From an uncultured Bdellovibrionales bacterium (GTDB lineage Bacteria; Bdellovibrionota_C; UBA2361; SZUA-149; DAOLCO01), in contig CAYGUX010000005.1 of assembly GCA_964353175.1 (NCBI GenBank), positions 84,373 through 148,372 of the forward strand: a stretch of DNA of 64,000 bases. The letters run 5' to 3'. Below the pieces are notes generated by a model. The model saw nothing but the letters and a program-made list of their open reading frames with translations, had not been told where the DNA came from and did not search any database. Positions 2,082-54,259 of the stretch are shown here, in pieces; within the stretch, counting starts at the first letter, position 1; each line of letters starts with the position of its first letter. Both the position numbers and the translations under genes were made by a program.

Positions 2082-3143
2082 AGTTACTACCTGACCATTT
2101 TCAATTTTCTTTATTACTTGCCTTAAGCCTTCAATATCTCCGTTCTTATCAAATTTATATTTACCAAATACACCAGAAAATTCATTATTATAAAGAAACT
2201 CTTTCGGATCTTTTCCACTTTCAATTGCCAAGTGCATCACCTTAAAAGCTTCTAAGGTTGTATAAATGACTAAATCCCAGGCATTTGGTTTCCCATGTTT
2301 ATTTATATATTTTTCCAGTATTATAGAATCTGATTTATTTAACCGATCTTTGATCGAAGGAAAGTCGGAAAATATAATACCTTCAGCATTACCTTTAGCA
2401 AGATTCAAGAAAGAGGAACTTCCTGGGTTATAAGAGCCATATATAGGAATATTATAGTTAGATTCCTTTAGCTGTTTTAAAATTACGGCAAATGAAGCCT
2501 CTGTATTGCTATTAATAAATAGGCTATCTACTTTTTGTTGTTTTAGCTTTAAAATAAGAGATTTAAAGTCATTATCAGCGCTTAAGTAAGGCTGAGTAAA
2601 GGTAGAAAAGTTCGCACTACGAGAATAATTTAGAAAGGCATCTAATAAATCGACAGAATAATCAGACTGCTCAGTTAATATCCCAAGTTTAGAATGTCTT
2701 TCAGAAATATAATGAAAAAGTATTTCAGCGTTAATCGTGTCATTTGGCGCGGTTCTAAAGATGTTATCTGCCGCAGTTGATATGTTGGGAGAAGTGGCAA
2801 GGGGGGCGAAAACAATTGTTCCAGCTTTTTGGTAGATCGATGCAGTTGAAAGTACGGTAGCGCTACAATTGCCGAATACATAACTAACCTTATCTATATT
2901 TATTAATTTATGAGCCACTGCTACGGCCTCTTTTCCTTCGCATTTATCGTCTTCCACAACAATATCGTATTTATCGTTTGCGATTTCGTGGTTGGCAAAA
3001 AAAACCGCATTCTTAATGTCTGTTCCAAAGGTTGCAGCTGGTCCAGACAGAGCAGTAGAAACGCCTATCTTAATCTTTTTGGTCTCAGCATTTGCAAAGG
3101 TGGAAAAAATTAAGAGCAGAATGAATAACAATATTTGTAGCAT
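2061..3143 (-). CDS. Periplasmic solute-binding protein, Leu/Ile/Val-binding (LivK / Peripla_BP_6) family. Start adjusted to the internal Met that begins the signal peptide.
   Basis: The ORF track gives 2061..3257. The signal peptide MLQILLFILLLIFSTFANA begins at the ATG at 3143. The mature protein has KIKIGVSTALSGPAATFG...DIVVEDDKCEGKEAVA, typical of branched-chain amino-acid-binding proteins. No permease or ATPase genes are adjacent. Confidence 0.65.
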   Translation of the reverse strand: MLQILLFILLLIFSTFANAETKKIKIGVSTALSGPAATFGTDIKNAVFFANHEIANDKYDIVVEDDKCEGKEAVAVAHKLINIDKVSYVFGNCSATVLSTASIYQKAGTIVFAPLATSPNISTAADNIFRTAPNDTINAEILFHYISERHSKLGILTEQSDYSVDLLDAFLNYSRSANFSTFTQPYLSADNDFKSLILKLKQQKVDSLFINSNTEASFAVILKQLKESNYNIPIYGSYNPGSSSFLNLAKGNAEGIIFSDFPSIKDRLNKSDSIILEKYINKHGKPNAWDLVIYTTLEAFKVMHLAIESGKDPKEFLYNNEFSGVFGKYKFDKNGDIEGLRQVIKKIENGQVVTLKQVTF

Positions 3144-3328
3144 AATTAAATGAATGTTACGGGGTAACTCTAAAGGGGCACGATAGGATATTCTTGAGGG
3201 TATTGTCAAGATGATTAGACTGGTGGGATGGGTAAAAATCATAGGTATTACCATCATTATAGAAGTTCTTGTTGAATAGCAGGTACTAAAGCTTGTTACG
3301 CTTTGGAAAATAGTTATAATACTAACCT

Positions 3329-6728: not shown

Positions 6729-6827
6729 AAGATATCATGAATATGTGTTTTTGGGCCCCTATGCCCGATAAGGTTACTTATCGGGCATAGGGGGTGGTCC
6801 GCTTAAGTAGCTGTTATTATGTGCTTT

Positions 6828-8226: not shown

Positions 8227-9381
8227 ATGGATATAGACGACAATAAAATTAAGTTATCTGGGAATCCAACACCATCATCTGGAACTGATAACAATATCGT
8301 CCTACCAATTAGAAGTGGACAATATGAGGATTCTTCTAACCTTGATTTCATGTCTAACATCAATCAACGTGGAGTTAAAAATATTTATGATTGTGAGCTA
8401 GATGACGTAATTTCTAATTATGTGCTTTATTATGCTAGCGGTGAAGGCCATACCGCTAAGGCTAAACGGTATGACTTACATTATTTTCTAAAGTTCCTAT
8501 CAAGTCCAACAAACAAGAATGTATTGGTTAGAAATTGGACCATGCAAGCAACGAAGGATTTTATTGATATAAGGTTAAACAAGGGAGAAGCTCCTTCTAC
8601 CGTTTCAAGACGTCTTGCAACAATTAAACATTTTGGTAGAACTCTTTCGGATAGAGTACCTGGTTTTATTAATCCTGCAAAAGAAGTAAAAGCACCTTCA
8701 TTTAAACAGGATCGTCCCCAAGGATTGACCATAGAAGTTGTGGAGCTCCTAAAAGTGAGTGCTATTACTATTTTTGAGGAGAAGCAACATGCATTCCCCG
8801 CATTCAGAAATATGGTTCTATTGGAGCTTTTGTTAGGGACTGGGTTAAGGGCTGACGAAGTGCGACTACTAAAACGTTCGCAACTTACAGATGACAATAC
8901 GTGGTTAAAAAACGTTAAAACTAAAGGTAAGAAGTTTAGAGATGTCTATATTCATGAAGGTTTAAGCCCACTTCTATTAGAGTATCTAACAATTTCGCAA
9001 GAACACCTAGTTCACCTATTCCCCATTACTTCATCCTATTCAAATAGTCAGTGGCTTAATTTCCCTGTATTTATCAGTACTCGGAATGGAGTGACGGATG
9101 ATCCTGTGAGCTTTACACTCGCACCTAAAACGTTATGGAGAGTTATTTCGGAAATAGGAAAGAAAGCTACATTGCTTTCTGAAGATGAGATTCCTAATCT
9201 TCACCCCCATAAGCTAAGACATGCCTTTGCTCATGGGCTATTAAATTCATCTAATGACATAAGGCTAGTAGCGCAAGCTTTGGGTCACAGTGATGTTAGA
9301 ACCACTATGAGATATACCGAAAGATCAAAGGAAGAATTAAAGAAGGCAATAGAGATTTCTCAAACAAAGAGAAATCTCTAA
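8227..9381 (+). CDS. Site-specific tyrosine recombinase / integrase (phage-integrase family)
   Basis: C-terminal catalytic signature HKLRHAFAHGLL ... LGHSDVRTTMRYTE (the R..H-x-x-R..Y tetrad context). N-terminal SAM-like core-binding region. Confidence 0.8.
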   Translation: MDIDDNKIKLSGNPTPSSGTDNNIVLPIRSGQYEDSSNLDFMSNINQRGVKNIYDCELDDVISNYVLYYASGEGHTAKAKRYDLHYFLKFLSSPTNKNVLVRNWTMQATKDFIDIRLNKGEAPSTVSRRLATIKHFGRTLSDRVPGFINPAKEVKAPSFKQDRPQGLTIEVVELLKVSAITIFEEKQHAFPAFRNMVLLELLLGTGLRADEVRLLKRSQLTDDNTWLKNVKTKGKKFRDVYIHEGLSPLLLEYLTISQEHLVHLFPITSSYSNSQWLNFPVFISTRNGVTDDPVSFTLAPKTLWRVISEIGKKATLLSEDEIPNLHPHKLRHAFAHGLLNSSNDIRLVAQALGHSDVRTTMRYTERSKEELKKAIEISQTKRNL

Positions 9382-25521: not shown

Positions 25522-26343
25522 CTATTTCTTTTGTGCATATTTATCACAGAAATCTTTCCCCTCACCTTCTATTGCAAGTACACAACTATCTTTGAAAGTT
25601 TTTTTAAGACCCCTCGGCCCTGCTTTAGCTGCTGGAAGAAACAATTCAGAACTTGGAATGTTTTTTAATTTAAAGAGTACAAGTTCTCTAATCTCTACCC
25701 TGAGGCTTGAAGTTTTTGTTTCACCGCTTGTAACTTGGAAATACGAGTTGGCACTAATATCATTTAAGGTATCAATACTAACGCCAGTAATATAACTATT
25801 GTCCTGATTGTATGGACTGAAATCATCATTAACTTTAGCATATACCGAACTAATAAAGTTCCCAGGTAGGACTAGAAAACTTAATGCATGCCAATCTAAC
25901 TCTTGTGATTCTAAAGTGCTAACAGGTAAAGGTGAAAGAGTGTACCATCCACCAGTTCCATCCTGATCCTTTAAATAGAACTCCAATCTAGTACTTGTTC
26001 TCAATCTTATCAACGACAATGCCCAGCCGGCATAGGGAGCGGTTTGGCTGTCATAATTAGTCACTAGTCTTTGTCTTTTATCTAGTGGTGGCGCTTGAGT
26101 ATATTTAAAATAGAAGCTTAATAAGATAGGCTCCGCATCAGATGGAAATAGATCACCATCTGACTTTAGAGAAAAATAAGAAGATTCTTTTGGTTCCGCA
26201 TTTTTCAAATCACCAATTTCAGACTGGCTAGTCTTAGATGATTTGATTTTTAAGGATTTGCTTTCACGATTACAACTAGCAGTCGTAATGCCAATGCATA
26301 AAAAAATAAAAAGAATTTGAAGTGATTTTTGGAGGCTTAACAT
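25522..26343 (-). CDS. Lipoprotein with a jelly-roll (LamG/concanavalin-like) appearance
   Basis: Lipobox ITTASC. Beta-rich sequence with GWALSLIRL...WHALSFLV. Confidence 0.3.
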   Translation of the reverse strand: MLSLQKSLQILFIFLCIGITTASCNRESKSLKIKSSKTSQSEIGDLKNAEPKESSYFSLKSDGDLFPSDAEPILLSFYFKYTQAPPLDKRQRLVTNYDSQTAPYAGWALSLIRLRTSTRLEFYLKDQDGTGGWYTLSPLPVSTLESQELDWHALSFLVLPGNFISSVYAKVNDDFSPYNQDNSYITGVSIDTLNDISANSYFQVTSGETKTSSLRVEIRELVLFKLKNIPSSELFLPAAKAGPRGLKKTFKDSCVLAIEGEGKDFCDKYAQKK

Positions 26344-26399
26344 TAAGCCTCCAAAAAATTAGAAATAAGGAACAAAAGTAACCCTTATTAATTAGGCAA

Positions 26400-31729: not shown

Positions 31730-31755
31730 TAGCGCAATTCTATTTACTAGATTTT

Positions 31756-32265
31756 TCAAGGCAAAACCAAGTACCTCGATACAAACAACCTCTCCTCTTC
31801 CTCTTCAGTTAAGATATCCTCCCCCACCCATACATTAAACCCTGAGTGGCTCCAGGATCTCATTAGATTAACATCGTCCTCCGATAGAAGATCTCTCTCA
31901 AGAAACGCATTTAATACTTTCTCCTGAGAGAGTTCTGTCAGAAGCTCAGTATCTATCTCAGGTAGTTCTTGATACTCGCCACTAGGAGTTATCACCCCAG
32001 GAAGCACAAGACTAGGCACATGGGGATGAGGAACTAAAATAGTCTCATTCAGGGTCTCTGAAAAAATGTGACCTCGCTTCGCTGTACAGCTGGGGCATAA
32101 CACTCTCTCCTTACACGAGAACGCTATCAGCTCTGAGTGATTACACTCCTCACGATGCGCTCTAGCGCAGCCATGTCTCAAGATCCCGCAATTAAGGTAC
32201 GCATCAAAGGACTGGGGGGACATTCGCTCTAAGAAACCCATACCGCTCCTCGAACAGCTCGTCAT
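31756..32265 (-). pseudogene. IS91-family (Zn_Tnp_IS91 + partial Y2/HUH) transposase remnant, truncated, in a G+C-rich segment
   Basis: CNHSELIAFSCKERVLCPSC...ILVPHPHVPSLVLP aligns with the IS91 zinc-binding domain and the start of the HUH region (CGHERVSYNSCRNRHCPKC...LPVPYFHVVFTLP). MRSWSHSGFNVWVGEDI...RLFVSRYLV resembles the SWxHSGFSVH...RLARY block. The protein is only 169 aa (~400 expected) and the catalytic Tyr half is absent. The local G+C is visibly higher than the flanks. Confidence 0.5.
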
Positions 32266-32592
32266 AACTCCTCTCGGTAGTTAAACACAAGGCGATAAAG
32301 GGCGCTCTCCTCGGGTTTGCGACGAGAGTACTCATGCAGCCTAGAGGCGTGCTTTGACCAGATCGGATAAGGTAGTTCCACCTAGCGTTATCGCTAAAAG
32401 GGGGGTGAAAATCCCAGGGAAGGGTGAGAAATATTGAAAAGTTGGCGATATCAGCGGGCTATCTGTTTTTAGAAGCCCAGTCAATACACGCTGTTGATCC
32501 ATGCGTTTAATAATCTAAGTTGCCTTTCTATTTGCTTATCGATATATTTTGGTTGAGGCGTTGTACTTAAACTAACTTAAATTATTATACCT

Positions 32593-33612
32593 ATGCTTTC
32601 CCTAAATTCAAAATACGCAAACTTTTTTATCTTTTTGTTCCTTGCGTATGGATTGTCTTTTGTACCTTCTCAGTCGGTCAGTGCGGATGATAAAATCATA
32701 CCAAACTTTAAGATCGGTTACATTCCTATCGTTGATCATTTAATACTTGGAGTAGCTAAGAAAAGAGAAGGAGATGATTTAAAAAGCTTTAATCTTGATC
32801 CCATTCGTTTCCCGGATATGGGTACGGTAGCTGAAGGGATTAGATCAGGGGATTTAGATGGTGGGTTTTTGTTGGCGCCACTTGCTTTTCAGGCAAAACT
32901 AAAAGGAGCTAAGATAAAAATATTGGCTTTGGGGCATAGAAATGGGAGTGCGTTTGTGGTTAGGGTTAAGCCTGGTATTGATTCCGTAAAGGATTTACGC
33001 GACAAAACTATAGCTATCCCACACCGATTTTCAACCCATAATATGCTTTTGCATATGTTTACTTCTAAGGAAGGATTGATACCTAACAGAGATTTTAAGG
33101 TTATTGAGTTAGGGCCTACAGAGATGCCATCCGCATTAGCTGGAGGAGTAATAGATGGGTATATCGTTGCGGAGCCAATTGCGGCTAGGAGCGAAGTGCT
33201 TGGGGTCGGAAAAGTATTGGTACTTTCAAAGGATATCTGGAAGGATCACCCAGATTGTGTGTTAGTCATGGGTGAAGACGTCATATCTAAATTCCCTCAA
33301 GCAGTAGAGGAGTTTCTTGAAAGTCTAGTAAGGGCAGGAATTTATGCGGAAGTTAATAGAGAAGAAAGTTCAGAGATAGGGTCTAAATTTTTAGGACAGC
33401 CGATAGAAGCATTAAAAATTTCAATGATGAAACCGAAGGACAGAGTTACTTTTGTGAATTTAATCCCTGAAGTCAATGAGCTGTCTAGAATTCAAGACTA
33501 CATGGCGAATGAGATGAATCTCTTTCCTAAAAAAGTGGATTTAAATAGTTTTATAGATGCTAGTTTTATTAGAACAGCATATGATAATTTAGAAAGCGCC
33601 AATAAAAAGTAA
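32593..33612 (+). CDS. ABC transporter substrate-binding protein, NitT/TauT (SsuA/NMT1-like) family
   Basis: Signal peptide. NMT1/SsuA-like fold cues. The permease and ATPase genes follow. Confidence 0.65.
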   Translation: MLSLNSKYANFFIFLFLAYGLSFVPSQSVSADDKIIPNFKIGYIPIVDHLILGVAKKREGDDLKSFNLDPIRFPDMGTVAEGIRSGDLDGGFLLAPLAFQAKLKGAKIKILALGHRNGSAFVVRVKPGIDSVKDLRDKTIAIPHRFSTHNMLLHMFTSKEGLIPNRDFKVIELGPTEMPSALAGGVIDGYIVAEPIAARSEVLGVGKVLVLSKDIWKDHPDCVLVMGEDVISKFPQAVEEFLESLVRAGIYAEVNREESSEIGSKFLGQPIEALKISMMKPKDRVTFVNLIPEVNELSRIQDYMANEMNLFPKKVDLNSFIDASFIRTAYDNLESANKK

Positions 33613-33628
33613 GTACAAGGACTTAAAA

Positions 33629-34408
33629 TTGAAGATTGGTAAACGCATTAAAGAGCTATCTCTTCCTCTGTTTGCCATAATGTTATTTGTTCTTATATGG
33701 CATATAATAGCAGGCAGTGGTTTATTCTTAACTGAGTTATTCCCATACCCCCATGAAGTTTTTTATGCTTTTTTAGAGGTATTAAAAAGTGGAGATTTGG
33801 CAACGAATTTGGTTTCTAGTTTGTTGCGTGTGGCAATGGGATTTGCTATCGCTGTAATTCTTGCGGTTCCTTTAGGCCTTTTGATCGGATGGCATAGTAG
33901 TTTATGGAAGTCTCTTTATCCGCTAATACAGATTTTTAGAACGATTTCACCTGTGGCTTGGATCCCTTTGGCAATTCTCTGGTTTGGTATAGGTGATGCG
34001 CCAGCCATTTTTATTGTTGCGATCACTGCTTTTTTCCCTCTTTTGATTTCATGTGTTTTTGCCGTGAAAAGCATTGATCCCCTACTCATAAAAGTTGCAA
34101 GAAATTTTGGTGCCACTGATTCGCAAGTGCTTTGGAGGGTTATTTTGCCAGGTAGCATTTCCTCGATTATGATTGCTCTTAGAGTGTCTTTAGGTTTTTG
34201 TTGGATGATAATCGTTGCTGCGGAAATGGTGGGAATGCGGTCTGGCTTAGGTTATATGATATTGGATGCTAGAAACTTTCTTAGAACTGATTTAGTTATG
34301 GCTGGAATGATAGTAATAGGGCTTGTGGGTTTAGTTATAGATAGAATAATGACAGCCTTGGAAATTAAGTTTAGAAAACATTTAATTCCCTTGGAGAGTA
34401 GAAAATGA
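33629..34408 (+). CDS. ABC transporter permease (SsuC/TauC-like)
   Basis: Six TM helices and an EAA-like loop (AAEMVGMRSGLGYMIL). Confidence 0.8.
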   Translation: MKIGKRIKELSLPLFAIMLFVLIWHIIAGSGLFLTELFPYPHEVFYAFLEVLKSGDLATNLVSSLLRVAMGFAIAVILAVPLGLLIGWHSSLWKSLYPLIQIFRTISPVAWIPLAILWFGIGDAPAIFIVAITAFFPLLISCVFAVKSIDPLLIKVARNFGATDSQVLWRVILPGSISSIMIALRVSLGFCWMIIVAAEMVGMRSGLGYMILDARNFLRTDLVMAGMIVIGLVGLVIDRIMTALEIKFRKHLIPLESRK

Positions 34409-35160
34409 AAGAACATTTTCTTTCTATCGTTGATTTAAAGAAATCCTTCGAAGGCACCCAGCTCGTTTCTCCCGTATTGGACATAGCATCTTTAAATTTG
34501 GCACAAGGAGAGTTTGTTTGTATACTTGGTGCTTCTGGTTGTGGAAAGTCTACTCTTCTAAATATAATAGCTGGGTTCGATAAACCTACCGGTGGAAAAG
34601 TTTTGTTAGAAGGGGCTTTAATCCACGCAAGTAACCCAAATTGTATATTAGTATTTCAAGATTTTGGTTTATTTCCATGGAGAGATGTTTTGGGGAATGT
34701 CTCTTTTGGCTTAGAATTTGGGAATAAGCCCAAAGAAGAGATAGAAGCTATCGCGAGAGAATATATTGACCTTGTAGGGTTATCAGATTTTGTGAATAGT
34801 TATCCTCATCAACTGTCTGGTGGAATGAAACAGAGAGTTGCTATCGCTCGGGCATTGTCCGTGGAGCCAAAGGTTCTTTTAATGGATGAACCTTTTGGGT
34901 CTTTGGATGCATTGACTAGATTAAATATGCAGGATGAGCTCACTCGTATCTGGATGAAGACAAATAAAACTGTTCTATTTGTAACGCACTCTGTTGATGA
35001 GGCTGTTTACCTGGGAGATAGGGTTATTGTCATGGGTAGTAGACCAAGTGGAATAAGGAAGATTTGGGATATTGATATAGATCGGCCCCGTCGAAAAGAC
35101 GACATGAGAATGTTGGACTTCAAGATTGAAATTCTTAAAGAATTGGGCGTTGCTAACTAA
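34405..35160 (+). CDS. ABC transporter ATP-binding protein (SsuB/TauB-like)
   Basis: Walker A GASGCGKST, the LSGGMKQR signature, and Walker B LLMDEPFGSLD. Confidence 0.88.
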   Translation: MKEHFLSIVDLKKSFEGTQLVSPVLDIASLNLAQGEFVCILGASGCGKSTLLNIIAGFDKPTGGKVLLEGALIHASNPNCILVFQDFGLFPWRDVLGNVSFGLEFGNKPKEEIEAIAREYIDLVGLSDFVNSYPHQLSGGMKQRVAIARALSVEPKVLLMDEPFGSLDALTRLNMQDELTRIWMKTNKTVLFVTHSVDEAVYLGDRVIVMGSRPSGIRKIWDIDIDRPRRKDDMRMLDFKIEILKELGVAN

Positions 35161-35240
35161 AGCAAAAATCTACTCCCCGAGACTGTAAAATAAAGTGTGT
35201 AAGGGAGAGTTTTTTCACTTCATTTCAATACAATAGAATA

Positions 35241-35339
35241 GGTACTACCCTCTTTTCTCCTATTATTATTCACCGTGATTAAAGGCACTTACACATTCAA
35301 CTACCCTAACATGCTAAGTATAAGAAAGAGGGTAGTACC
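35241..35339. repeat. 15-bp perfect inverted repeat (GGTACTACCCTCTTT ... AAAGAGGGTAGTACC) with a ~69-nt spacer, between convergent genes
   Basis: Read directly: the left arm is at 35241-35255 and the right arm at 35325-35339. The right arm ends at the stop codon of the minus-strand receiver gene. Confidence 0.6.
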
Positions 35340-35761
35340 TATGAAGGGCCCTCCCCTTCAGCCATTTCCCTTAAGTTATCTGCTGAATATGGTTCAAAAA
35401 GAAAACCGTCTACTCCATTAAGCATATTGTCGGCGATGATTTCATTCTGTTTGCTACTTGGTTTAAGTACGGTAATAAAAGCCCATTGTTTGCCTTTAGG
35501 AGTCTTCTTAGCTTCCTTTATGAAATCAGACACACTTTCTATGGTAAAACGATGTGAAATTGTGACAACATCAATTGATTCAAAACCATTTCCAAAGTTA
35601 AGGCCCTCTTGCAGAGAAGAGCAAAATAAAACTTTCTTGAAACACGGCAAGCAGAGTGCAACATCTTTAAGCATAGACCTACTCTTGCCATCAGAATCAA
35701 TAATTAGGATGCTGTATATATCAGACGTTGCCATTTCTCGATTGGACCTCAGGATCCCCAA
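35339..35761 (-). CDS. Stand-alone receiver (REC)-like domain protein
   Basis: ILIIDSDG acidic pocket, a candidate phospho-Asp in IDVVTISH, and a conserved Lys in VLKPS. 140 aa. Confidence 0.45.
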   Translation of the reverse strand: MGILRSNREMATSDIYSILIIDSDGKSRSMLKDVALCLPCFKKVLFCSSLQEGLNFGNGFESIDVVTISHRFTIESVSDFIKEAKKTPKGKQWAFITVLKPSSKQNEIIADNMLNGVDGFLFEPYSADNLREMAEGEGPS

Positions 35762-35920
35762 TTGGGAATTTTCTTATGCCACTAAACAAGTCGGCCAACT
35801 AGGCTAATTTACTTAATCAAAACAGTAAGATTTTATCTAATCCACTGCTTTTATTGAAGTTCGCAGTCAGCCAATTCTTGCGAATGCTCACCAAAAATGC
35901 TGCTTGGGGAGGGTTAAGAA

Positions 35921-37045
35921 CTACTCTACGACTCTTCCAATACCGTTTCGGATCTGCTTAACCACAAATGTGTGACTAAAATACTTACCGCCTTCTTCAT
36001 CTTCAACATAAGAAAACTTCCCCTGGTTACCATCAAAATTAGAAACTACTTTAAAAATATCCATTAAAGAAGTAAAATTATTAGTAGGTTTTGCCCCAAA
36101 GCCACTTGCAACCACATCTGCCATGTCATACGCATTTCCTGCCATGGGCATTTGAGCATCTAGCTTATATTTGGCTTCATACTTTTTCACAAAATCATCT
36201 TTCACTTTATAATAACTATATATAGCTCCCTCTACATACTGACTATTAGGTAACAATAATGAAGATTCTATTAAGTTTGTGCTATAAATATTAAAGTCAT
36301 ATCCCACATCTTTAGCTTGTCTAATAAAAGTCAGAATTTGGGCTGGCAACAAAAAAAGTCCTAAATTTTTTACTTTCCGAGCCTTGAGTTGCAACACAAT
36401 CGATCTAAAATCCAATTCCGATGGGTTCACCGTAGCAATGACATCTAAGTTCTCGCCCTTAGAAAGATTTGCCTCAAAAGCAATGAGCATAGAATTTATG
36501 TAACCCATCTCCGTTTTAACTATAAAAAATTCTTTTTCTCCGTTTTTTCTCAACTGACTCAGTAAAGGCCTTATGTATCTAGCTGAGTTATCATGAGCTC
36601 TGATAACATTTTTACTATGCAAGGAAGACGCTTCATCAGAAGTGAAACAAAGAAGGAGCTTATGCTCTCTATCAACAATTGGAGCCAACGCACTGCAAGC
36701 AGGAGAACCAAAAGAAAAAAATAGATCAACTTTATCTATTGTATCAAGCTTCCTGAAGGCGCTGATTGAAGACTTAGCATCATATTGATCATCTTCGTAG
36801 ATATAATTAACGAAATCCACTTTATCTGGATTTTCGCTTCTATAAAGCTCTATGCCATTTTTGATTGCGATTCCAAAATCAGCGAGTGGACCAGAGAGAG
36901 GAAGAATTACTCCGACCTTAAGAGGATTAGCTTCAGCTTTGCTTTGCAAACCCAGCAAAAAAACAACACTTAGCAACAATAAGAACTTAGAAATGGTTTT
37001 AGAAAATAAGTACATTACAAAAGGAAACCTATAAACTAATAGCAT
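35921..37045 (-). CDS. Periplasmic solute-binding protein, LivK/Peripla_BP_6 family (paralogue B)
   Basis: KVGVILPLSGPLADFGIAIKNGIELYR. The TAATG stop/start overlap with paralogue A indicates coupling. No permease is nearby. Confidence 0.65.
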   Translation of the reverse strand: MLLVYRFPFVMYLFSKTISKFLLLLSVVFLLGLQSKAEANPLKVGVILPLSGPLADFGIAIKNGIELYRSENPDKVDFVNYIYEDDQYDAKSSISAFRKLDTIDKVDLFFSFGSPACSALAPIVDREHKLLLCFTSDEASSLHSKNVIRAHDNSARYIRPLLSQLRKNGEKEFFIVKTEMGYINSMLIAFEANLSKGENLDVIATVNPSELDFRSIVLQLKARKVKNLGLFLLPAQILTFIRQAKDVGYDFNIYSTNLIESSLLLPNSQYVEGAIYSYYKVKDDFVKKYEAKYKLDAQMPMAGNAYDMADVVASGFGAKPTNNFTSLMDIFKVVSNFDGNQGKFSYVEDEEGGKYFSHTFVVKQIRNGIGRVVE

Positions 37046-38151
37046 TACTCTATTACTACCGCTATTCCATTTATAACTTGCTTAACTACTATAGGATATT
37101 TAAAATATTTACCCCCCTCCTGATCTTGAACGTAAGAGAAATTACCAAGTACCCCTTCTTGTTCTTTTACATTTTGAAATATACTCATTAGGGTTTCATT
37201 ATCTCTTTTCATCTCAGATTTAATTCCGTTGGCTAAAATACTCACCATATCATATGCACTTCCCCCAAAAGGCAATTGAGAATCCTGCATATACCTTTCC
37301 TTATAAATCAATACAAAGCTTTCTTTCAAACTGTGATATGGATAAATGGAGCCCTCCAATCCCTCTGAATTAGGCAACAAAATAGCAGACTCCGTCATAT
37401 TAGTACTGAAAATATTAGGGGAAAATCTATTTTCCTTAGCCTGCTTCATAAAAATCACCATTTGCTCAGGCATTAGAAATAATCCAAGAGCTTTGATGTT
37501 CTTTAGTTTGGATTTTAAAATTAAATTTCTAAAATCCAAATCACTGGGGTTCACGCTCCCTACTTCCACTAAACTCTCCCCCTCAATTAGATTCCTCTCT
37601 AATCCCTTTTTCATTGATCTAAGATAACTATTTTCAACATCAACTACGCTAAATTCTTTTACATCTCGTTTTCGCAAATACTCCAATAATCCCCGCATAT
37701 ATTGTGCGCTATAGTTCATCGTTCTAATCACTAATTTTCTATCCACGGTGGGGGCTTCATCGGCACTGATATTAATTAAAATCTTACCATCTCGCTCTAA
37801 AATTGGAGCCAACGCACTAGCGGCAGGAGCACCAAATGCAAAAAATATATCGACTTTGTCAATGGTAGAGAGTTTATGGTAAGCACTAATAGAAGTCTTA
37901 GAATCATAATGATCATCTTCATAAACAAAATTGAGGTGTTTCACTTTAGTAGGATATTGAGAACGATATAACTCAATTCCATTCTTAATAGCATTCCCAT
38001 AATCAGCTAAAGGCCCAGAGAGAGGGAGAATAACACCGACTTTTAGCTTTGTAGACTCTCCCGAAACTCCAGTACAACAAAAAGCAAGAACCAAGAATAA
38101 TAAACTAAATAATCGTCCCATTCTCTCTCCTTTTCCTAAACTGTTTAACAA
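37045..38151 (-). CDS. Periplasmic solute-binding protein, LivK/Peripla_BP_6 family (paralogue A)
   Basis: KVGVILPLSGPLADYGNAIKNGIELYR and a signal peptide. Close paralogue of the downstream gene. Confidence 0.65.
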   Translation of the reverse strand: MLNSLGKGERMGRLFSLLFLVLAFCCTGVSGESTKLKVGVILPLSGPLADYGNAIKNGIELYRSQYPTKVKHLNFVYEDDHYDSKTSISAYHKLSTIDKVDIFFAFGAPAASALAPILERDGKILINISADEAPTVDRKLVIRTMNYSAQYMRGLLEYLRKRDVKEFSVVDVENSYLRSMKKGLERNLIEGESLVEVGSVNPSDLDFRNLILKSKLKNIKALGLFLMPEQMVIFMKQAKENRFSPNIFSTNMTESAILLPNSEGLEGSIYPYHSLKESFVLIYKERYMQDSQLPFGGSAYDMVSILANGIKSEMKRDNETLMSIFQNVKEQEGVLGNFSYVQDQEGGKYFKYPIVVKQVINGIAVVIE

Positions 38152-38714
38152 CCTCTTCTGCTATCCCGTTAGGTTCTATGTGAGGTACGAACTCTTTTTC
38201 TATCCCCTCAAGCTCAGACAAGTTCAACCCCTCCCTCAACCTCAACACCCCACCACCTGTCATCAGACACTTCCTAAACTTCTTTTTAATCTCTAAAAAA
38301 GTATCGCCGGGCTCAATGAATAGAGTGTGTATCATCTAGGCCTCTAAGCTCTTTTGCTAATTCATCTAAGTGCAAACTTGCCAAGAACAAACTATCCGAA
38401 GAACCTGAAGTTTGTAGGATCCCTTCAAAAGAACACTGCGCTAAACTTTTCCCTTCTACGAAGTCTGTAAAACCAATGTCGGTAAAAGAGAATACCGATC
38501 CATATCCACCTTCTCTAAGTCTACCTTCGAAAGAGATAGTTGATTTTAGCAGATCAAGACTGATCCGCTCTTTTTCCTCATCTACTGAAATAAAAATCTT
38601 TGGGGAGCCATTCAGATTGCTGGCAACATGCGCCTGCACCGGCAAGGAAGATGCATCTAGAATACTTTTAGCTTTTTGGAAGAAGTTAGTTAGGACTTGT
38701 AACATTCCATTCAT
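38105..38714 (-). pseudogene. Two hypothetical ORFs (133 aa and 76 aa) that overlap by ~23 nt in different frames. This is either a frameshifted single gene or a tightly overlapped pair.
   Basis: The ORFs 38313..38714 and 38105..38335 share the overlap sequence ATGATACACACTCTATTCATTGA. I recognised no family. Confidence 0.25.
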
Positions 38715-38766
38715 TATAGAGTGAAATTCCCTCAGGTCAAGCCTTTGCTCTCATACTTTCAGGCTC

Positions 38767-39380
38767 TTATACTCGCTCGTCAAAGAAGTCCTGCAATAGA
38801 TTGGCTCTTTCAAACTGCCCATTGGCTCTAAAAGCCTCGACCAGTGAACCTACGGCATCTAGATTTCTCCATTGGGTCATTTTGCAAGCAGATTCAGCAC
38901 ACTGAACAGACCATTCTAGGTCTTGAACCTCATTTGAATTAGAATAGATCCTAGACATTTCTATATAAGGAACAGGATCTCTAGGATCAACATCCAAAGC
39001 TCTTCTAAACATCTCCTTAGCTTGAATAATCCTATCGCCCCCTAAAAATAACTCGGCTCTTAACATATAGGCCTCTTTAGGTGCTTCCCCAGTCGCAAGG
39101 CAACGCACCAACAAATTCTCTCCCACCACAAAGTCACACCCTCTTTAAGTTCGTAATGACTTAGTGCACAATCTATTACATGCCTTAAAGGAGCATCTAG
39201 ATTTAAGGATCTCAATGCATCTCTTAACTTCAAAACGGATTCCTCTAAAGCAGATCCTCCGATATTACTTAAAAGAAGAAGATGAACATACTTTGCTGTA
39301 ATTTCAACATTATTAGGAAGCACTTCTTTCCCAATCTCTAAAGTCTGAAGAGCAAATCTACTTTTACCCAGATATGACAT
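38767..39380 (-). pseudogene. TPR-repeat protein split into two overlapping ORFs by an apparent frameshift near 39125-39135
   Basis: The ORFs 39060..39380 and 38767..39129 are both TPR-like and overlap by 70 nt in different frames. Shifting one nucleotide into the other frame gives a continuous protein (...HYELKEGVTL / VVGENLLVRCLATGE...). Confidence 0.45.
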
Positions 39381-39391
39381 TTCAGTAGTTG

Positions 39392-39670
39392 CTATGCTGA
39401 ATAAGAGTTAATCGTCTGATAAAATCCTGTTTGACCCGAGGTTAGAGGCCTCGGGACTGAAAAAAGCCCAGTTAAATCAAACAGGAGACCTATGAAGAGG
39501 ATATCATATAAAACCGCTGGCTTAACAGTTCCTCGCTTTTTTAGAGCGCACGTTCGTGTGCGCTCTAAAGGCGGTCCTGCCTGCGGTACCATCCTGATAC
39601 CGCTTACGACAGCACAAGCCCGCTCAGAACTGTTAAGCCCGCCGTTTATTTTTCCCCCACCTCCTCCATT
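39392..39670 (-). ncRNA. Candidate structured RNA or leader element: a G+C-rich block of nested perfect hairpins, family unassigned
   Basis: Hairpins read directly (plus strand): CCTGTTTGA...TCAAACAGG enclosing CCCGAGG-ttagagg-CCTCGGG; TTTAGAGCGCAC-gttc-GTGCGCTCTAAA; GCGGTA-ccatcctga-TACCGC; and the long-range pair GGCTTAACAGTTC / GAACTGTTAAGCC. The block is followed by a T-rich and CCTCCTCC tract, and is much G+C-richer than the flanks. Strand is assigned only from its proximity to the TPR gene start at 39380. Confidence 0.3.
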
Positions 39671-39777
39671 TTAAGAGGTTCGACTTAATTCGCCATTTTG
39701 AGTTGTGCTATAAATCGGCTAATAAAAATTCTTGACCATATCTGATTGTATGCGTATAATAAAGAAAATATGCGCAT

Positions 39778-40035
39778 ATGAAAAATCGGCTTAATTTAAC
39801 TATAGATGAAGATTTACTTGTAAAGGTAAAGAAATTTGCCTCTGATTCGGGGGTTTCCTTGTCTAGTATTGTGGAAAAGGGGCTGGCTAGAGTAATTAGT
39901 CAAGAAGAGAATATTAATATTGATAAGCTGCTAAATGATTTTCATAAAAAGGCACTTGGCAAGAACTTTAAAGAACCTTCTGACATATTAATAAAAGATC
40001 TTTTACAAGATAGAAGGCAGAAAAAGTATTCGTGA
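39778..40035 (+). CDS. Type II antitoxin, ribbon-helix-helix (CopG-like)
   Basis: N-terminal LNLTIDEDLLVKVKKFASDSGVSLSSIVEKGL is an RHH pattern. 85 aa. Its stop overlaps the GTG start of the downstream PIN gene (GTGA). Confidence 0.55.
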   Translation: MKNRLNLTIDEDLLVKVKKFASDSGVSLSSIVEKGLARVISQEENINIDKLLNDFHKKALGKNFKEPSDILIKDLLQDRRQKKYS

Positions 40036-40442
40036 ACATTTTACTTGATGCCAATATTTATATTGATATAGCATGTAGGCCCAGTCTGCAGCTTGCCTCG
40101 GTTAACTTATTTAAGAAGCTAGTACTGTCCCCGGGAATCGATGTTTGTCTTGCAAGCTGTAGTTATACTGACATTTTTTATTTGATCTCTAAGCTAACTG
40201 AGAAAAAGCATGCCCTCGAATTCTTTCAAACTCTTGAAAAAGCTAATGTACAGTTTCTTGATTTTACTGAAAAGGAAATTCGTTTTGCTAAAACATTAAA
40301 ATTTAATGATCACGAAGATGCTTGCGTATGTGCAACTGCCGTTTTAAATAACTGTTCCTTAATAGTTACTAGAGATGTTAAAGATTTTAAAAATTCACCC
40401 ACTAAGATTAGAACTCCTAGCCAGTTTTTAAGAGAATTGTAA
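40032..40442 (+). CDS. vapC: PIN-domain toxin (VapC-like)
   Basis: N-terminal acidic residue in ILLDANIYID, a further acidic residue, and a C-terminal TRD. 136 aa. Confidence 0.65.
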   Translation: MNILLDANIYIDIACRPSLQLASVNLFKKLVLSPGIDVCLASCSYTDIFYLISKLTEKKHALEFFQTLEKANVQFLDFTEKEIRFAKTLKFNDHEDACVCATAVLNNCSLIVTRDVKDFKNSPTKIRTPSQFLREL

Positions 40443-40842
40443 GCGTTCGCTCGTCGTTAACATAAGACCACTTTAATCAACTAAATTGCCTTACATAAGA
40501 ATATTATTTACTCACAGCAGGTTTTATGCTTTCCTGGGGGTTGGGTTTAATTAAATTAAATCTAAGAATAATGCTTAGTTCCTAATCGTAAATTTAGTAA
40601 ACAAGAGAATGCTTTCATGTTAAGGATAGTGTCCGGAATCTTTCTGCTAGAGATCCGTCCTTTGCGAATGTTGAATTCCTGCAAAACAGCCTGTCGTAGT
40701 CGGTCATATTCTTAGCCATAAGTGACCAATATTGGTCTAAATTTTCATTTATTTACACACATCTTATGAAGTTGATGCTGTTAAGAAGTGGTCTAAGTAT
40801 ATGTAAAAAAAGGAAATGGGATATACCTAGGGATTTCCTCAG

Positions 40843-40892
40843 CCACAATTTATGGTATTGACCGCCTCGAAGGACCACTATATGTAGTGGTA
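40843..40892. promoter_or_regulatory. Candidate NrdR operator: two boxes ~33 bp apart, upstream of nrdA
   Basis: Box 2 is a near-perfect palindrome, ACCACTATATGTAGTGGT (40875-40892). Box 1, CCACAATTTATGGTAT (40843-40858), matches the acaCaAtATaTtGtgt consensus at about 11 of 16 positions. The pair lies 110-160 bp upstream of the nrdA ATG. Confidence 0.35.
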
Positions 40893-41000
40893 TGCTCACT
40901 TTTTACCTCTATCGGGAAAAAAGATATTAAAGCAAGGAATCATTAGAAAATAGAGAGATTTTAACAATACAATTGAGACATTCAAAGAGGAGATAATTCT

Positions 41001-46305: not shown

Positions 46306-46379
<74 letters not shown>

Positions 46380-53342: not shown

Positions 53343-53419
53343 TTATCCCAATAAATTACAGGAGTTTATCAGTTTTTCCGCTTATATATTTGCGTTTTGC
53401 TTCCTAACTCTGTTAGAAA

Positions 53420-53461
53420 GACTTCGATTTTAGGCATGTATTTATGCTTAAAATCGAAGTC
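53420..53461. repeat. Strong hairpin (13-bp perfect arms GACTTCGATTTTA / TAAAATCGAAGTC, extendable to ~18 bp with one mismatch) in the bamD-like / Rrf2 intergenic region
   Basis: Read directly. It sits ~78 bp after the bamD-like stop and ~280 bp before the Rrf2 start, and no T-tract follows. Confidence 0.5.
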
Positions 53462-53742
53462 TAAGAATTACTTACATTGTTATAGGCAATATAAGTAATT
53501 TGGAGGTGTTTTTTAAGTCAGTTGCTTGTATTAGTCGGTTGATTTAGTGAACATACTAAAATGAGGAATGTTATCTGTTTTTAGTTTAAATTGCCTTAAG
53601 ATTTAATCATTCGAAAGATTGATTAATCTTGAATAGCTTTATAAATGAGAGATAGAAGTAACAGTAATCAAATGAGTTTTTTAGCAATAGTAAGATTAAA
53701 CTGATTAAAAGTCAGGAATTAAAATAATAGAGGAACAAACAT

Positions 53743-54198: not shown

Positions 54199-54259
54199 AT
54201 TTTCTAAGTCAATCTTGTGATGCTATAAAAGGGTCTCTACTAGAGACCCTTTTATATTT

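What the first reader, a model, noticed from the sequence alone, without database searches (positions are those of the whole stretch)
39392..39670. Unassigned G+C-rich block of nested perfect hairpins between a frameshifted TPR gene and an RHH-PIN toxin-antitoxin pair
In an A/T-rich genome, this ~280-nt stretch is conspicuously G+C-rich and contains at least four clean stem-loops plus a 13-bp long-range pairing. The plus-strand elements are: CCTGTTTGA/TCAAACAGG closing a three-way junction that holds CCCGAGG/CCTCGGG; a 12-bp perfect stem TTTAGAGCGCAC-gttc-GTGCGCTCTAAA; GCGGTA/TACCGC; and GGCTTAACAGTTC/GAACTGTTAAGCC. A CCCCCACCTCCTCC polypyrimidine tract follows. The six-frame ORFs inside it (66 and 60 aa) have no protein-like composition. 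That combination is what structured ncRNAs, riboswitch leaders or attenuators look like in low-GC genomes. I could not match it by eye to RNase P, tmRNA, SRP, 6S or the common riboswitch cores. It lies about 12 nt upstream of the start of a decaying TPR gene on the minus strand and ~100 nt before a toxin-antitoxin module, so it could also be a mobile-element end or a recombination site.
Basis: seen in the sequence. Interest (0 to 1): 0.65.

Follow-up and report, generated by a model that had tools for sequence, protein, structure and literature searches.

The report
Orphan hairpin block in mosaic island
The hairpin-dense, G+C-rich stretch is real, but it matches no known RNA family, is missing from every related genome I could reach, and sits at a seam between two transferred gene modules inside a 9-kb inserted island, so it is more likely a leftover mobile-DNA signal than a riboswitch or housekeeping RNA.

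Summary
Observation confirmed. Window 39425-39647 holds two self-contained folds: a 3-way junction, and a 20-bp-closed domain containing a perfect 12-bp hairpin. The fold z-score is about -7 to -9 on both strands. Three of the window's 18 perfect inverted repeats of 10 bp or more lie here.

Interpretation mostly not supported. No Rfam family reaches threshold. Sub-threshold hits are noise. The neighbouring TPR gene is a pseudogene cut exactly at 39380, and its intact homologue elsewhere has no such element. The RHH-PIN cassette (39719-40441) has its own promoter and occurs in three other genomic contexts without the element. So the block is not a leader for either neighbour.

Relatives L087 and L088 have apaG directly followed by nrdA. 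The window carries a roughly 9-kb mosaic island there (about 31733-40712) with a decayed IS91-family transposase. The element is one orphan piece of that island. I found no copy in the window, relatives, plasmids, phages, viral contigs or one metagenome scan.

Best guess (about 0.4): a relic cis-acting hairpin signal of a single-strand-DNA-processing mobile element. A strain-specific ncRNA, including a retron-like msr-msd relic, is not excluded (about 0.25). Strand, expression and genome-wide copy number remain untested.

The parts
39381..39718 (.). The whole orphan block. It is bounded on the left by the breakpoint of the truncated TPR pseudogene and on the right by the start of homology of the portable TA cassette.
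   Evidence: tblastn and the DNA alignment put the start of TPR homology at about 39377-39380. TA homology with L086, L091 and L082 starts at 39719, 39722 and 39731. blastn and a covariance model find no match to this block in any held locus.
39425..39486 (.). Domain 1, a three-way junction. It has a 10-bp perfect outer stem (39425-39434 / 39477-39486), a 7-bp hairpin CCCGAGG/CCTCGGG (39435-39455) and a 4-bp helix ACTG/CAGT (39456-39472).
   Evidence: Sequence, folds on both strands and the inverted-repeat lists. L090 is identical across this domain.
39511..39647 (.). Domain 2, closed by a 13-bp perfect stem (21 bp at 90% complementarity). It is flanked by an A-run on the 5' side and TTTATTTTT on the 3' side, and encloses two arms.
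   Evidence: (I2). It is the strongest fold outlier of the window.
39540..39569 (.). Perfect 12-bp hairpin TTTAGAGCGCAC-GTTCGT-GTGCGCTCTAAA. GTTC sits in the loop. The hairpin is preceded by GTTC-CTCG at 39528-39535.
   Evidence: (I6). GTTC and CTCG are the cleavage tetranucleotides reported for IS91-family ends (PMC13181058). Their presence here is a sequence observation, not a functional test.
39572..39626 (-). Irregular arm. The core hairpin is GCGGTA/TACCGC, with loop CCATCCTGA on the + strand. On the minus strand G-U pairs lengthen the arm (GCGGUAUCA/UGGUACCGC, CUGUC/GGCAG).
   Evidence: Folds. The MFE has 7 G-U pairs on the minus strand against 3 on the plus strand. The overall strand difference is not unusual for this window.
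39654..39667 (.). CCCCCACCTCCTCC tract (GGAGGAGGTGGGGG on the minus strand). In the minus-strand fold it pairs with CCUCUUC at about 39495-39501, adding an outer helix around domain 2.
39386..39436 (+). Left copy of an imperfect direct repeat that flanks the structured block. It resembles the sequence just upstream of, and including, the -35 box of the TA promoter.
   Evidence: Smith-Waterman score 30 against 18.0 +/- 3.5 for shuffles; 7 of 1000 shuffles reach it. Suggestive only.
39700..39737 (+). Right copy of the same direct repeat. It overlaps the -35 box (TTGACC 39732-39737) of the TA promoter.
38740..39380 (-). TPR pseudogene. It lacks the first ~82 residues of P0002 (~129 of P0001), has a frameshift at about 39135-39138, and has a premature stop at 38767-38769.
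   Evidence: The junction and frameshift are reproduced in L090.
39719..40442 (+). Portable DUF6364 (RHH-type antitoxin)/PIN toxin-antitoxin cassette with its own promoter (39732-39760) and palindromic operator.
   Evidence: Pfam and promoter scan. It is 92.5% nt-identical to L086 and 93% to L091, and 79% aa-identical to the L082 cassette, each in a different neighbourhood.
31733..40712 (.). A roughly 9-kb mosaic island inserted between the apaG stop codon and the apaG terminator/nrdA promoter. It contains the element. Relatives L087 and L088 lack it.
   Evidence: Synteny prs-MORN-apaG-nrdA-nrdB in L087/L088.
31766..32403 (-). Decayed IS91-family (Zn_Tnp_IS91 / Y2) transposase gene at the left edge of the island.
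   Evidence: Pfam. It is 85-87% nt-identical to the full-length 446-aa gene that lies next to the same TA cassette in L086.

Best explanation
The block is a strain-specific, non-coding piece of foreign DNA. It sits at the seam between two independently acquired modules, a truncated TPR gene block and a portable toxin-antitoxin cassette. Both lie in a roughly 9-kb mosaic island inserted between apaG and nrdA.

I read it as an orphaned cis-acting DNA signal of a mobile element that works through single-stranded DNA. In that class, perfect palindromes extrude as hairpins and are recognised and nicked by an HUH-type enzyme. Three enzyme types fit:
- an IS91-type Y2 rolling-circle transposase, which uses subterminal palindromes next to GTTC/CTCG;
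- a conjugative relaxase acting at an oriT;
- a rolling-circle Rep protein.

Shown here:
- The structure is real.
- The block is absent from relatives.
- The block lies at a module junction.
- The island exists.
- IS91-family elements are linked to these modules.

Inferred, not shown:
- That the hairpins were ever a substrate of such an enzyme.
- Which enzyme it would have been.
- Whether the signal is still active. It is probably a relic, because no cognate enzyme gene is intact in the window.
For: (1) Comparison rules out a role as a native leader of either neighbour.

(2) The whole region 31733-40712 is an insertion relative to L087/L088, where apaG abuts nrdA.

(3) The island is a mosaic of separately sourced modules.
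- A decayed IS91-family transposase lies at its left edge.
- A full-length copy of that transposase lies beside the same TA cassette in L086.
- The TPR block is a truncated copy of genes that sit next to rplU in a relative.
- A second palindromic element, with 18-bp perfect arms, lies at another module seam at 35238-35342.

(4) The stable core is made of perfect Watson-Crick palindromes.
- They fold about equally on both strands and with DNA parameters.
- The strand difference is unremarkable.
- This is what DNA-level inverted repeats give.

(5) GTTC-CTCG (39528-39535) lies 4 nt before the 12-bp palindrome, and GTTC is in its loop. IS91-family ends are described as subterminal palindromes adjacent to a GTTC or CTCG cleavage site, with frequent one-ended transposition carrying flanking DNA (PMC13181058).

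(6) (A/G)TCCTG occurs 3 times on the + strand where 0.14 is expected. One copy begins 5 nt after the 12-bp inverted repeat, and the inverted repeat with a nick core ATCCTG just downstream is the MOBP oriT layout (PMC3772185).

(7) An imperfect direct repeat flanks the block, as after an insertion.

(8) No Rfam family matches. No convincing promoter or terminator was found for a discrete RNA.
Against: - No second copy and no homologue was found anywhere, so membership of any mobile-element family is unproven.
- No sequence similarity to either end region of the IS91 copy available (L086 2787-3236; window 32403-32592).
- The IS91 remnant is 7 kb away, not adjacent.
- No relaxase, Rep, Y1 transposase or RT gene was found among the window ORFs of at least 110 aa scanned up to 56.5 kb. 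ORFs from 56562 on were not scanned.
- None of the three TCCTG sites meets the full (C/T)ATCCTG(C/T) consensus.
- The motif arguments are post hoc.
- The direct repeat is only marginally significant (7/1000) and has indels.
- The block has no terminal inverted repeats at its outer ends and no clean target-site duplication.
- G+C enrichment in an A+T-rich genome is also the classic signature of structured RNAs.
- Several extra helices form only on the minus strand through G-U pairs.
Confidence: 0.4

Rival explanations
1. A strain- or lineage-specific structured non-coding RNA of about 270 nt, transcribed from the minus strand and carried as cargo of the island. It would act in trans or as part of a system whose protein partner has been lost.
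For: - Extreme fold stability, and the strongest outlier of the window on the minus strand.
- The block is G+C-rich in an A+T-rich background.
- Additional helices form only on the minus strand through G-U pairs: the 9-bp GCGGUAUCA/UGGUACCGC, CUGUC/GGCAG, and an outer GAGGAGG/CCUCUUC helix (7 G-U pairs against 3).
- The two domains are modular multi-helix junctions rather than simple hairpins.
Against: - No Rfam match.
- No homologue and no covariation data at all.
- Absent from relatives, because the whole island is absent.
- The only minus-strand promoter-like site is a weak 9/12 match overlapping the TA promoter, and no canonical terminator was found.
- Long perfect stems without wobble pairs or mismatches are less typical of old RNA genes.
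- The strand asymmetry is within the window's normal range (z -1.4).
- The DNA immediately downstream is a dead gene.
Confidence: 0.18
2. A relic retron-type msr-msd RNA gene on the minus strand of domain 2. The 13-21-bp closing stem would be the a1/a2 repeats, the irregular G-U-containing arm would be msr, and the perfect 12-bp hairpin would be msd. The reverse transcriptase and effector would have been deleted in the rearrangement that also truncated the TPR gene.
For: The layout matches the generic description in PMC7736814: terminal inverted repeats that hybridise, msr stem-loops, then one msd hairpin with a stem of 10-50 bp, in that order. On the minus strand the order is correct. Only the arm that would stay RNA uses G-U pairs. 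The arm that would have to fold as DNA is pure Watson-Crick. The setting is an accessory island next to a TA module.
Against: - The defining partner, a contiguous RT gene, is absent. Downstream on the minus strand there are only domain 1 and the pseudogene, with no RT among the window ORFs scanned up to 56.5 kb.
- PADLOC finds nothing on the island proteins.
- The msr-like arm is one long composite stem, not 1-3 short stem-loops.
- Any three-way junction closed by a long stem would resemble this generic layout.
- A branching G cannot be identified from the sequence.
Confidence: 0.07
3. Functionless junction DNA. The palindromes would have been produced or perfected by template-switching or fold-back repair during the rearrangements that built the island, or the block is a scrap of a higher-GC donor genome. 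No present or past sequence-specific function.
For: - The block lies exactly between two breakpoints.
- It is an orphan in every search.
- The stems are perfect, hence young.
- Neighbouring genes are decaying (TPR pseudogene, IS91 remnant).
- It is flanked by an imperfect duplication.
Against: Five separate helices arranged as two closed, nested junctions, with local G+C enrichment, are more organised than repair scars usually are. The fold z-score of -7 to -9 and the clustering of 3 of the window's 18 perfect inverted repeats argue for a selected or templated element.
Confidence: 0.15
4. A solitary integron attC-type recombination site. GCTTAAC (39520-39526) and GTTAAGC (39632-39638) match the R'' (RYYYAAC) and R' (GTTRRRY) cores 119 bp apart, with the TA module as the adjacent cassette.
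For: Both core consensus sequences are met, and the spacing falls in the 57-141 bp range known for attC sites (sequence; the consensus is from my own knowledge). TA modules are common integron cassettes.
Against: - The 13 bp following the cores pair perfectly, so there is no unpaired central spacer and no extrahelical bases. These are the structural hallmarks of attC.
- There is no second attC after the PIN gene.
- There is no integron integrase or cassette array. The only tyrosine recombinase seen is 30 kb away.
- The TA cassette in L082, L086 and L091 has no such site.
Confidence: 0.03
5. A bidirectional intrinsic terminator or 3'-UTR inherited from the donor context. Domain 2 is a long stem flanked by an A-run and a T-run. 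It is now stranded between divergent genes.
For: AAAACCGC...GCCGTTTATTTTT flanks the closing helix on the + strand, and GGTTTTAT follows it on the - strand. Other terminators in this window are long perfect hairpins, for example 6756-6793, 26326-26357 and 54224-54256.
Against: - The terminator scan reports nothing here.
- The hairpin has a 95-nt branched interior.
- The two flanking genes diverge, so nothing is transcribed into it today.
- This reading does not explain domain 1.
Confidence: 0.05

Closest known systems
IS91-family (rolling-circle, Y2 HUH transposase) end regions terIS / oriIS
   Same: Both have subterminal palindromes next to a GTTC or CTCG tetranucleotide and no target-site duplication. 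These elements are known to carry adjacent DNA by one-ended transposition and to build mosaics (PMC13181058). A decayed IS91-family transposase lies in the same island, and an intact copy lies beside the same TA cassette in L086.
   Different: The block is 7 kb from the transposase remnant rather than within 100-200 nt. It has no sequence similarity to the end regions of the available copy. It is far larger and more branched than the single or double palindromes described. The perfect 13-bp closing stem would straddle any GTTC cleavage point.
MOBP-type origin of transfer (oriT): inverted repeat followed by nick core ATCCTG
   Same: A perfect inverted repeat is followed within 4-26 nt by GTCCTG|C and CATCCTG|A. 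(A/G)TCCTG is over-represented on one strand. The setting is accessory DNA next to a TA module.
   Different: No site meets the full (C/T)ATCCTG(C/T) consensus. No relaxase or coupling-protein gene was seen in the window. There is no similarity to any plasmid in PLSDB. The resemblance is motif-level only.
Retron msr-msd non-coding RNA
   Same: On the minus strand the order is: terminal inverted repeats closing the structure, then an RNA-type arm, then a perfect hairpin with a stem in the 10-50 bp range (PMC7736814; fold).
   Different: No reverse transcriptase gene follows, and no effector is present. The msr-like part is one long composite arm. There is no covariation or homologue to test against.
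MITE / palindromic repeat elements (REP, Correia-like)
   Same: Similar size of about 140 bp, 21-nt terminal inverted repeats (90% complementary), a non-coding interior, and a position in an intergenic seam.
   Different: No target-site duplication. No second copy in the 64-kb window, in about 40 kb of close relatives, or in the JGI metagenome scan for the terminal repeats.
Integron attC site
   Same: R''/R' core consensus sequences at the right spacing, next to a TA module.
   Different: No unpaired central spacer, no extrahelical bases, no integrase and no array.

Membership tests
Any Rfam family (riboswitches, RNase P, tmRNA, SRP, 6S, ribozymes, group II intron domains) | Covariance-model score at or above the family's gathering score | tested here: not met
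   The whole window at gathering score gives only tRNA-Met at 46306-46379. For 39250-39800 at E <= 10 the best hits have E = 3, namely mir-3 and drz-agam-1 at 15-17 bits against gathering scores of 37-54. ARAGORN finds no tmRNA.
cis-regulatory leader of the downstream (minus-strand) TPR gene | Present upstream of orthologous genes, with an intact regulated gene | tested here: not met
   The gene is truncated at 39380, frameshifted and prematurely stopped. The orthologue in L081 has an unrelated 181-nt spacer next to rplU.
leader / regulatory element of the RHH-PIN toxin-antitoxin operon | Lies within the operon's transcript and is conserved with the cassette | tested here: not met
   The promoter at 39732-39760 lies downstream of the element. 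Cassette homology starts at 39719-39731. L082/L083, L086 and L091 lack the element.
IS91-family end (terIS / oriIS) | Subterminal palindrome adjacent to a GTTC/CTCG-type cleavage tetranucleotide | tested here: met
   GTTC-CTCG at 39528-39535 lies 4 nt before the 12-bp palindrome. GTTC is in its loop. GAAC at 39627 abuts the irregular arm on the minus strand. Criterion from PMC13181058. With GTTC at 3 per kb this is a weak criterion.
IS91-family end (terIS / oriIS) | Lies within about 100-300 nt of the transposase gene and resembles the ends of related copies | tested here: not met
   The transposase remnant is at 31766-32403, 7 kb away. No similarity to L086 2787-3236 or to window 32403-32592 beyond chance.
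MITE / dispersed palindromic repeat | Terminal inverted repeats | tested here: met
   21-nt arms at 39511-39531 / 39627-39647, 90% complementary.
MITE / dispersed palindromic repeat | Target-site duplication and multiple dispersed copies | tested here: inconclusive
   No direct repeat abuts the arms. No other copy in the window, relatives, plasmids, phages, viral contigs or the JGI metagenome scan. The rest of the source genome could not be searched.
Retron msr-msd ncRNA | a1/a2 terminal inverted repeats enclosing msr stem-loop(s) followed by an msd hairpin with a 10-50 bp stem | tested here: inconclusive
   The minus-strand fold has this order. The criteria are in PMC7736814. The layout is generic, and the msr part is atypical.
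Retron msr-msd ncRNA | Contiguous reverse-transcriptase gene downstream of msd | tested here: not met
   Only domain 1 and the TPR pseudogene follow. No RVT domain in any scanned ORF. No PADLOC hit.
Integron attC | R'' RYYYAAC and R' GTTRRRY cores 57-141 bp apart | tested here: met
   GCTTAAC at 39520-39526 and GTTAAGC at 39632-39638. The consensus is from my own knowledge.
Integron attC | Unpaired central spacer and extrahelical bases in the folded strand; integrase or cassette array nearby | tested here: not met
   13 consecutive perfect pairs. No second site after the PIN gene. No intI-like gene near; there is a tyrosine recombinase only at 8227-9381.
MOBP-type oriT | Nick consensus (C/T)ATCCTG(C/T) just 3' of an inverted repeat, with a cognate relaxase | tested here: not met
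   The sites are AATCCTGT (39423), GGTCCTGC (39573) and CATCCTGA (39590). Each misses the consensus by one position. No relaxase domain in the scanned ORFs.
Intrinsic (rho-independent) terminator | Short G+C-rich hairpin followed by a U-tract at the end of a co-directional gene | tested here: not met
   The scan finds none in 39381-39718. The flanking genes diverge from the block.

The most novel reading that the evidence does not exclude
The block could be a previously undescribed structured RNA of about 270 nt, transcribed from the minus strand and carried on mobile DNA. One possibility is the RNA component of a defence or retroelement system, retron-like, with an msr-type arm and a perfect msd-type hairpin. 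That system may have lost its protein partner here, or the partner may act in trans from elsewhere in the genome.
Probability: 0.15. Interest if true: 0.55.

Novelty: new member of a known kind. Interest (0 to 1): 0.28.

Why it matters
If the block is a relic hairpin signal of a rolling-circle or conjugative element, it mainly serves as a marker. It shows how a toxin-antitoxin cassette, a transporter operon and a copied core-gene block were stitched into a small island between apaG and nrdA in a Bdellovibrionota-like genome. It also shows that G+C-rich, highly structured intergenic blocks in A+T-rich genomes are not automatically RNA genes.

If the block turned out to be transcribed and conserved, it would be a new mobile-element-borne RNA class in a poorly studied predatory-bacteria lineage. 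With one orphan copy and no expression data, its present value is modest.

Tried and rejected
- **Rfam.** Searched at gathering score and at relaxed thresholds. Nothing. The drz-agam-1 (HDV-like ribozyme) hit at E = 3 was examined by hand. The sequence has no 3' strand for P1 after the putative P3, so I rejected it.
- **Direct homology searches with the element.** blastn against plasmids and phages, against all fetched loci, and a covariance model of domain 2 over 380 kb of loci. Nothing.
- **Collection scans.** Four viral-contig patterns found nothing. One metagenome scan with the outer-stem pattern gave a single hit, L085. That hit is an unrelated ~60-bp perfect terminator hairpin sharing only a 13-mer, so I count it as chance.
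- **Using the spurious ORFs as protein probes for homologous DNA**. Only the source genome's own 60-aa gene call came back, plus three tandem-repeat proteins that match by chance.
- **Genome scan with NrdA**. The nearest genome in the species-representative collection is only 68% identical, so there was no close synteny from that route.
- **Cobalamin or nrd riboswitch idea.** Rejected. There is no Rfam hit. The nrdA promoter and NrdR-box region is at about 40840-40900. The block is separated from nrdA by the TA cassette.
- **Strand assignment from G-U pairs.** The minus strand is 18 kcal/mol more stable, but 75 of 456 control windows differ as much. Not decisive.
- **Terminal inverted repeats between the two edges of the 39381-40712 region**. 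None found.
- **Circular-permutation model** linking the L086 arrangement (TA then IS91) to the window. Rejected, because window 40443-40712 does not match L086 2787-3236.
- **PADLOC on island proteins**. Nothing.
- **Looked for a 6S RNA upstream of the 5-FTHF cyclo-ligase gene**. Nothing.
Full report

Yes. The only correction is that the loop of the 12-bp stem is GTTCGT (6 nt). The stems organise into two closed units.

- Domain 1 (39425-39486) is a three-way junction. It has a 10-bp perfect outer stem, the 7-bp CCCGAGG/CCTCGGG hairpin and a 4-bp helix.
- Domain 2 (39511-39647) is closed by a 13-bp perfect stem, which reaches 21 bp at 90% complementarity. It holds the perfect 12-bp hairpin and an irregular arm built around GCGGTA/TACCGC.

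The 279-nt stretch folds to -98.4 kcal/mol on the + strand (z -7.3) and -116.7 on the - strand (z -7.6) as RNA. As DNA the z-scores are -9.1 and -8.5. No shuffle is as stable.

In a 150-nt sliding scan of the whole 64-kb window, regressed on G+C, 39501-39650 is the strongest outlier: -6.3 sd on the minus strand and -4.4 sd on the plus strand. Three of the window's 18 perfect inverted repeats of at least 10 bp lie within 215 nt here. G+C is 0.46-0.50 against a window mean of 0.37. The structure is therefore not a chance feature.

**2. Is it a known RNA?**

No. Rfam at gathering score finds only tRNA-Met at 46306-46379 in the window. With relaxed thresholds on 39250-39800 the best hits have E = 3-8 and scores far below the gathering scores. 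I examined the drz-agam-1 hit by hand and it lacks the P1 3' strand. ARAGORN finds no tmRNA.

**3. Is it a regulatory leader of a neighbour?**

No, for both neighbours.

*Minus-strand neighbour (TPR gene).*
- Intact homologues are P0001 (342 aa) and P0002 (295 aa).
- The window copy begins only at residue 83 of P0002, exactly at 39380.
- It changes frame at about 39135-39138 and has a premature stop at 38767.
- A DNA alignment with the intact gene (L081) loses all similarity upstream of about 39377.
- The missing N-terminal third is nowhere in the window.
- In L081 the intact gene sits next to rplU-rpmA-obg behind an unrelated 181-nt spacer.
- A second assembly (L090) is 100% identical over 38502-39497, so the junction and frameshift are not peculiar to one assembly. 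It may come from the same reads, though.

*Plus-strand neighbour (TA cassette).*
- The DUF6364/PIN cassette has an 11/12 sigma-70 promoter at 39732-39760, downstream of the element.
- The cassette recurs at 92-93% nt identity in L086 and L091, and at 79% aa identity in L082/L083, each time in a different neighbourhood.
- Homology always begins at 39719-39731 and ends at the PIN stop codon. The element is never present.

The 338 nt at 39381-39718 are thus a separate piece bounded by two homology breakpoints.

**4. The wider context: a mosaic island.**

The window genome is Bdellovibrionota-like. Its nearest relative in the species-representative collection shares only 68% NrdA identity.

Closer relatives were reached through NrdB cluster members. 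L087 and L088 are about 77% nt-identical in nrdAB. They show the order prs - MORN - apaG - 260-nt spacer - nrdA - nrdB.

In the window, apaG ends at 31729. Homology to that spacer resumes only at about 40713, at the apaG terminator hairpin. So about 9 kb (31733-40712) is an insertion. It contains, in order:
- a decayed IS91-family transposase gene (31766-32403);
- an NMT1-type ABC transporter;
- unassigned ORFs;
- two Peripla_BP_6 paralogues;
- the truncated copy of the TPR three-gene block;
- the element;
- the TA cassette;
- 270 nt of unassigned sequence.

In L086 a full-length copy of the same IS91-family transposase (446 aa, Zn_Tnp_IS91 + Y2_Tnp) lies 450 nt from the same TA cassette. A second palindromic element, with 18-bp perfect arms and a 69-nt spacer (z -5.2), lies at another module seam at 35238-35342.

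**5. Is it repeated or conserved anywhere?**

Not in anything I could search.
- No second copy in the window.
- No match in about 40 kb of close relatives or in any of the 91 loci by blastn.
- No match with a covariance model of domain 2.
- No match in PLSDB plasmids or INPHARED phages.
- No match in four viral-contig scans.
- One JGI metagenome scan for the outer stem gave only an unrelated long terminator hairpin sharing a 13-mer.
- Protein searches with the spurious ORFs returned only the source genome's own 60-aa gene call.

**6. RNA or DNA, and which strand?**

The stable core consists of perfect Watson-Crick palindromes that fold on either strand. The minus strand gains three or four extra helices through G-U pairs. 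The resulting 18 kcal/mol difference is within the normal range for this window (z -1.4).

On the minus strand there is only a weak 9/12 promoter-like site, overlapping the TA promoter's -10 region. No terminator-like site was found in the block. The closing stem of domain 2 is flanked by an A-run and TTTATTTTT, but nothing is transcribed into it from a co-directional gene today.

**7. Best explanation and rivals.**

The block is strain-specific accessory DNA at a seam of a mosaic island that carries IS91-family remnants. Given that, I think it most likely (about 0.4) that it is an orphaned cis-acting hairpin signal of a mobile element that moves through single-stranded DNA.

- IS91-family ends are subterminal palindromes beside a GTTC or CTCG cleavage site. 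One-ended transposition frequently carries neighbouring DNA (PMC13181058).
- Here GTTC-CTCG (39528-39535) precedes the 12-bp palindrome by 4 nt, and GTTC sits in its loop.
- On the strand of the transposase remnant, GTTC directly abuts the imperfect palindromic arm.
- Alternatively, (A/G)TCCTG occurs three times on the plus strand where 0.14 is expected. One copy begins 5 nt after the perfect inverted repeat. This recalls the MOBP oriT layout of an inverted repeat followed by the ATCCTG nick core (PMC3772185).
- An imperfect direct repeat (39386-39436 against 39700-39737; 7/1000 shuffles) flanks the structured part.

All of these are motif-level, post hoc arguments. There is no similarity to the available IS91 end regions. 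No full nick consensus is met. No HUH-enzyme gene is intact nearby.

The rivals are:
- a strain-specific ncRNA on the minus strand (about 0.18);
- a retron-like msr-msd relic (about 0.07), whose generic layout fits (PMC7736814) but which lacks an RT;
- functionless junction DNA (about 0.15);
- a stranded terminator (about 0.05);
- a solitary attC (about 0.03), where the core motifs fit but the unpaired spacer, extrahelical bases, integrase and array are all missing.

**8. Novelty and score.**

The feature is real and unassigned. The evidence moves it away from the interesting reading (a new riboswitch or housekeeping RNA) and towards an orphan mobile-DNA relic. I rate it as a new member of a known kind, with low confidence in the exact kind, and give it an interest of about 0.28.

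The most novel reading still open is a new mobile-element-borne structured RNA. I give that a probability of about 0.15 and an interest of about 0.55 if true. Copy-number analysis in the full genome and any transcript data would settle most of this.

Noticed in passing
window 31733-40712: A roughly 9-kb mosaic island inserted between the apaG stop codon and the apaG terminator/nrdA promoter. Relatives L087 and L088 have apaG directly followed by nrdA. The island holds an IS91 remnant, an ABC transporter, two Peripla_BP_6 genes, a truncated TPR block, the hairpin block and a TA cassette.
   Followed up: yes
window 31766-32403 (-); L086 3237-4577: A decayed IS91-family (Zn_Tnp_IS91/Y2_Tnp) transposase gene with internal deletions, its 3' part and oriIS side missing. 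An intact 446-aa copy (85-87% nt identity) lies 450 nt from the same TA cassette in a close relative.
   Followed up: partly
window 35238-35342: A MITE-like palindromic element with 18-bp perfect arms (ATAGGTACTACCCTCTTT) around a 69-nt A+T-rich spacer, fold z -5.2. It lies at another module seam of the island, between the ABC ATPase gene and unassigned ORFs.
   Followed up: partly
window 39719-40442; L082 2488-3200; L086 2062-2786; L091 1444-1827; L084: The DUF6364(RHH)/PIN cassette behaves as a portable unit running from promoter to stop codon. It is found in at least four different neighbourhoods, with homology starting at the -35 box and ending at the stop. The promoter carries paired TATGCG(T/C)ATA operator-like palindromes.
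   Followed up: partly
window 38105-38714 and L081 11061-11661: The two small genes downstream of the TPR gene (133 aa and 76 aa; no Pfam or PADLOC hit) travel with it as a three-gene block. In the relative this block sits next to rplU-rpmA-obg.
   Followed up: no
window 40840-40900: NrdR-box-like palindromes (CACAATTTATGGTATTG and CCACTATATGTAGTGG) overlap a TTGACC promoter upstream of class I nrdA. They are conserved in L087, L088 and L001.
   Followed up: partly
window 53351-53575: An A+T-rich but strongly structured intergenic region between a BamD/YfiO-like gene and an Rrf2 regulator gene (-4.6 sd on the + strand). It includes a 14-bp perfect inverted repeat at 53419-53462. No Rfam hit at gathering score.
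   Followed up: no
window 35921-38121: Two tandem Peripla_BP_6 solute-binding paralogues (about 69% nt identity over 300 nt) inside the island. A third family member lies at 2061-3257.
   Followed up: no
window 8227-9381: A 384-aa tyrosine recombinase (Phage_integrase) gene 30 kb from the element. I did not examine whether it is XerC/D-like or belongs to an integrated element.
   Followed up: no
window 39424, 39574, 39591 (+): (A/G)TCCTG occurs three times on one strand of the 338-nt block, where about 0.14 is expected. None fits the full MOBP nick consensus.
   Followed up: partly
window 39492-39674 (+): The 60-aa ORF inside the hairpins has a good AGGAG Shine-Dalgarno sequence and is annotated as a gene in the public source genome (P0008). 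It has no homologue among 1.84 billion cluster representatives, so it is probably a spurious call.
   Followed up: yes
L085 1-140: A perfect hairpin of about 60 bp after a DksA/TraR-like gene in a JGI metagenome contig. It shares only a 13-mer with the element and is unrelated.
   Followed up: yes
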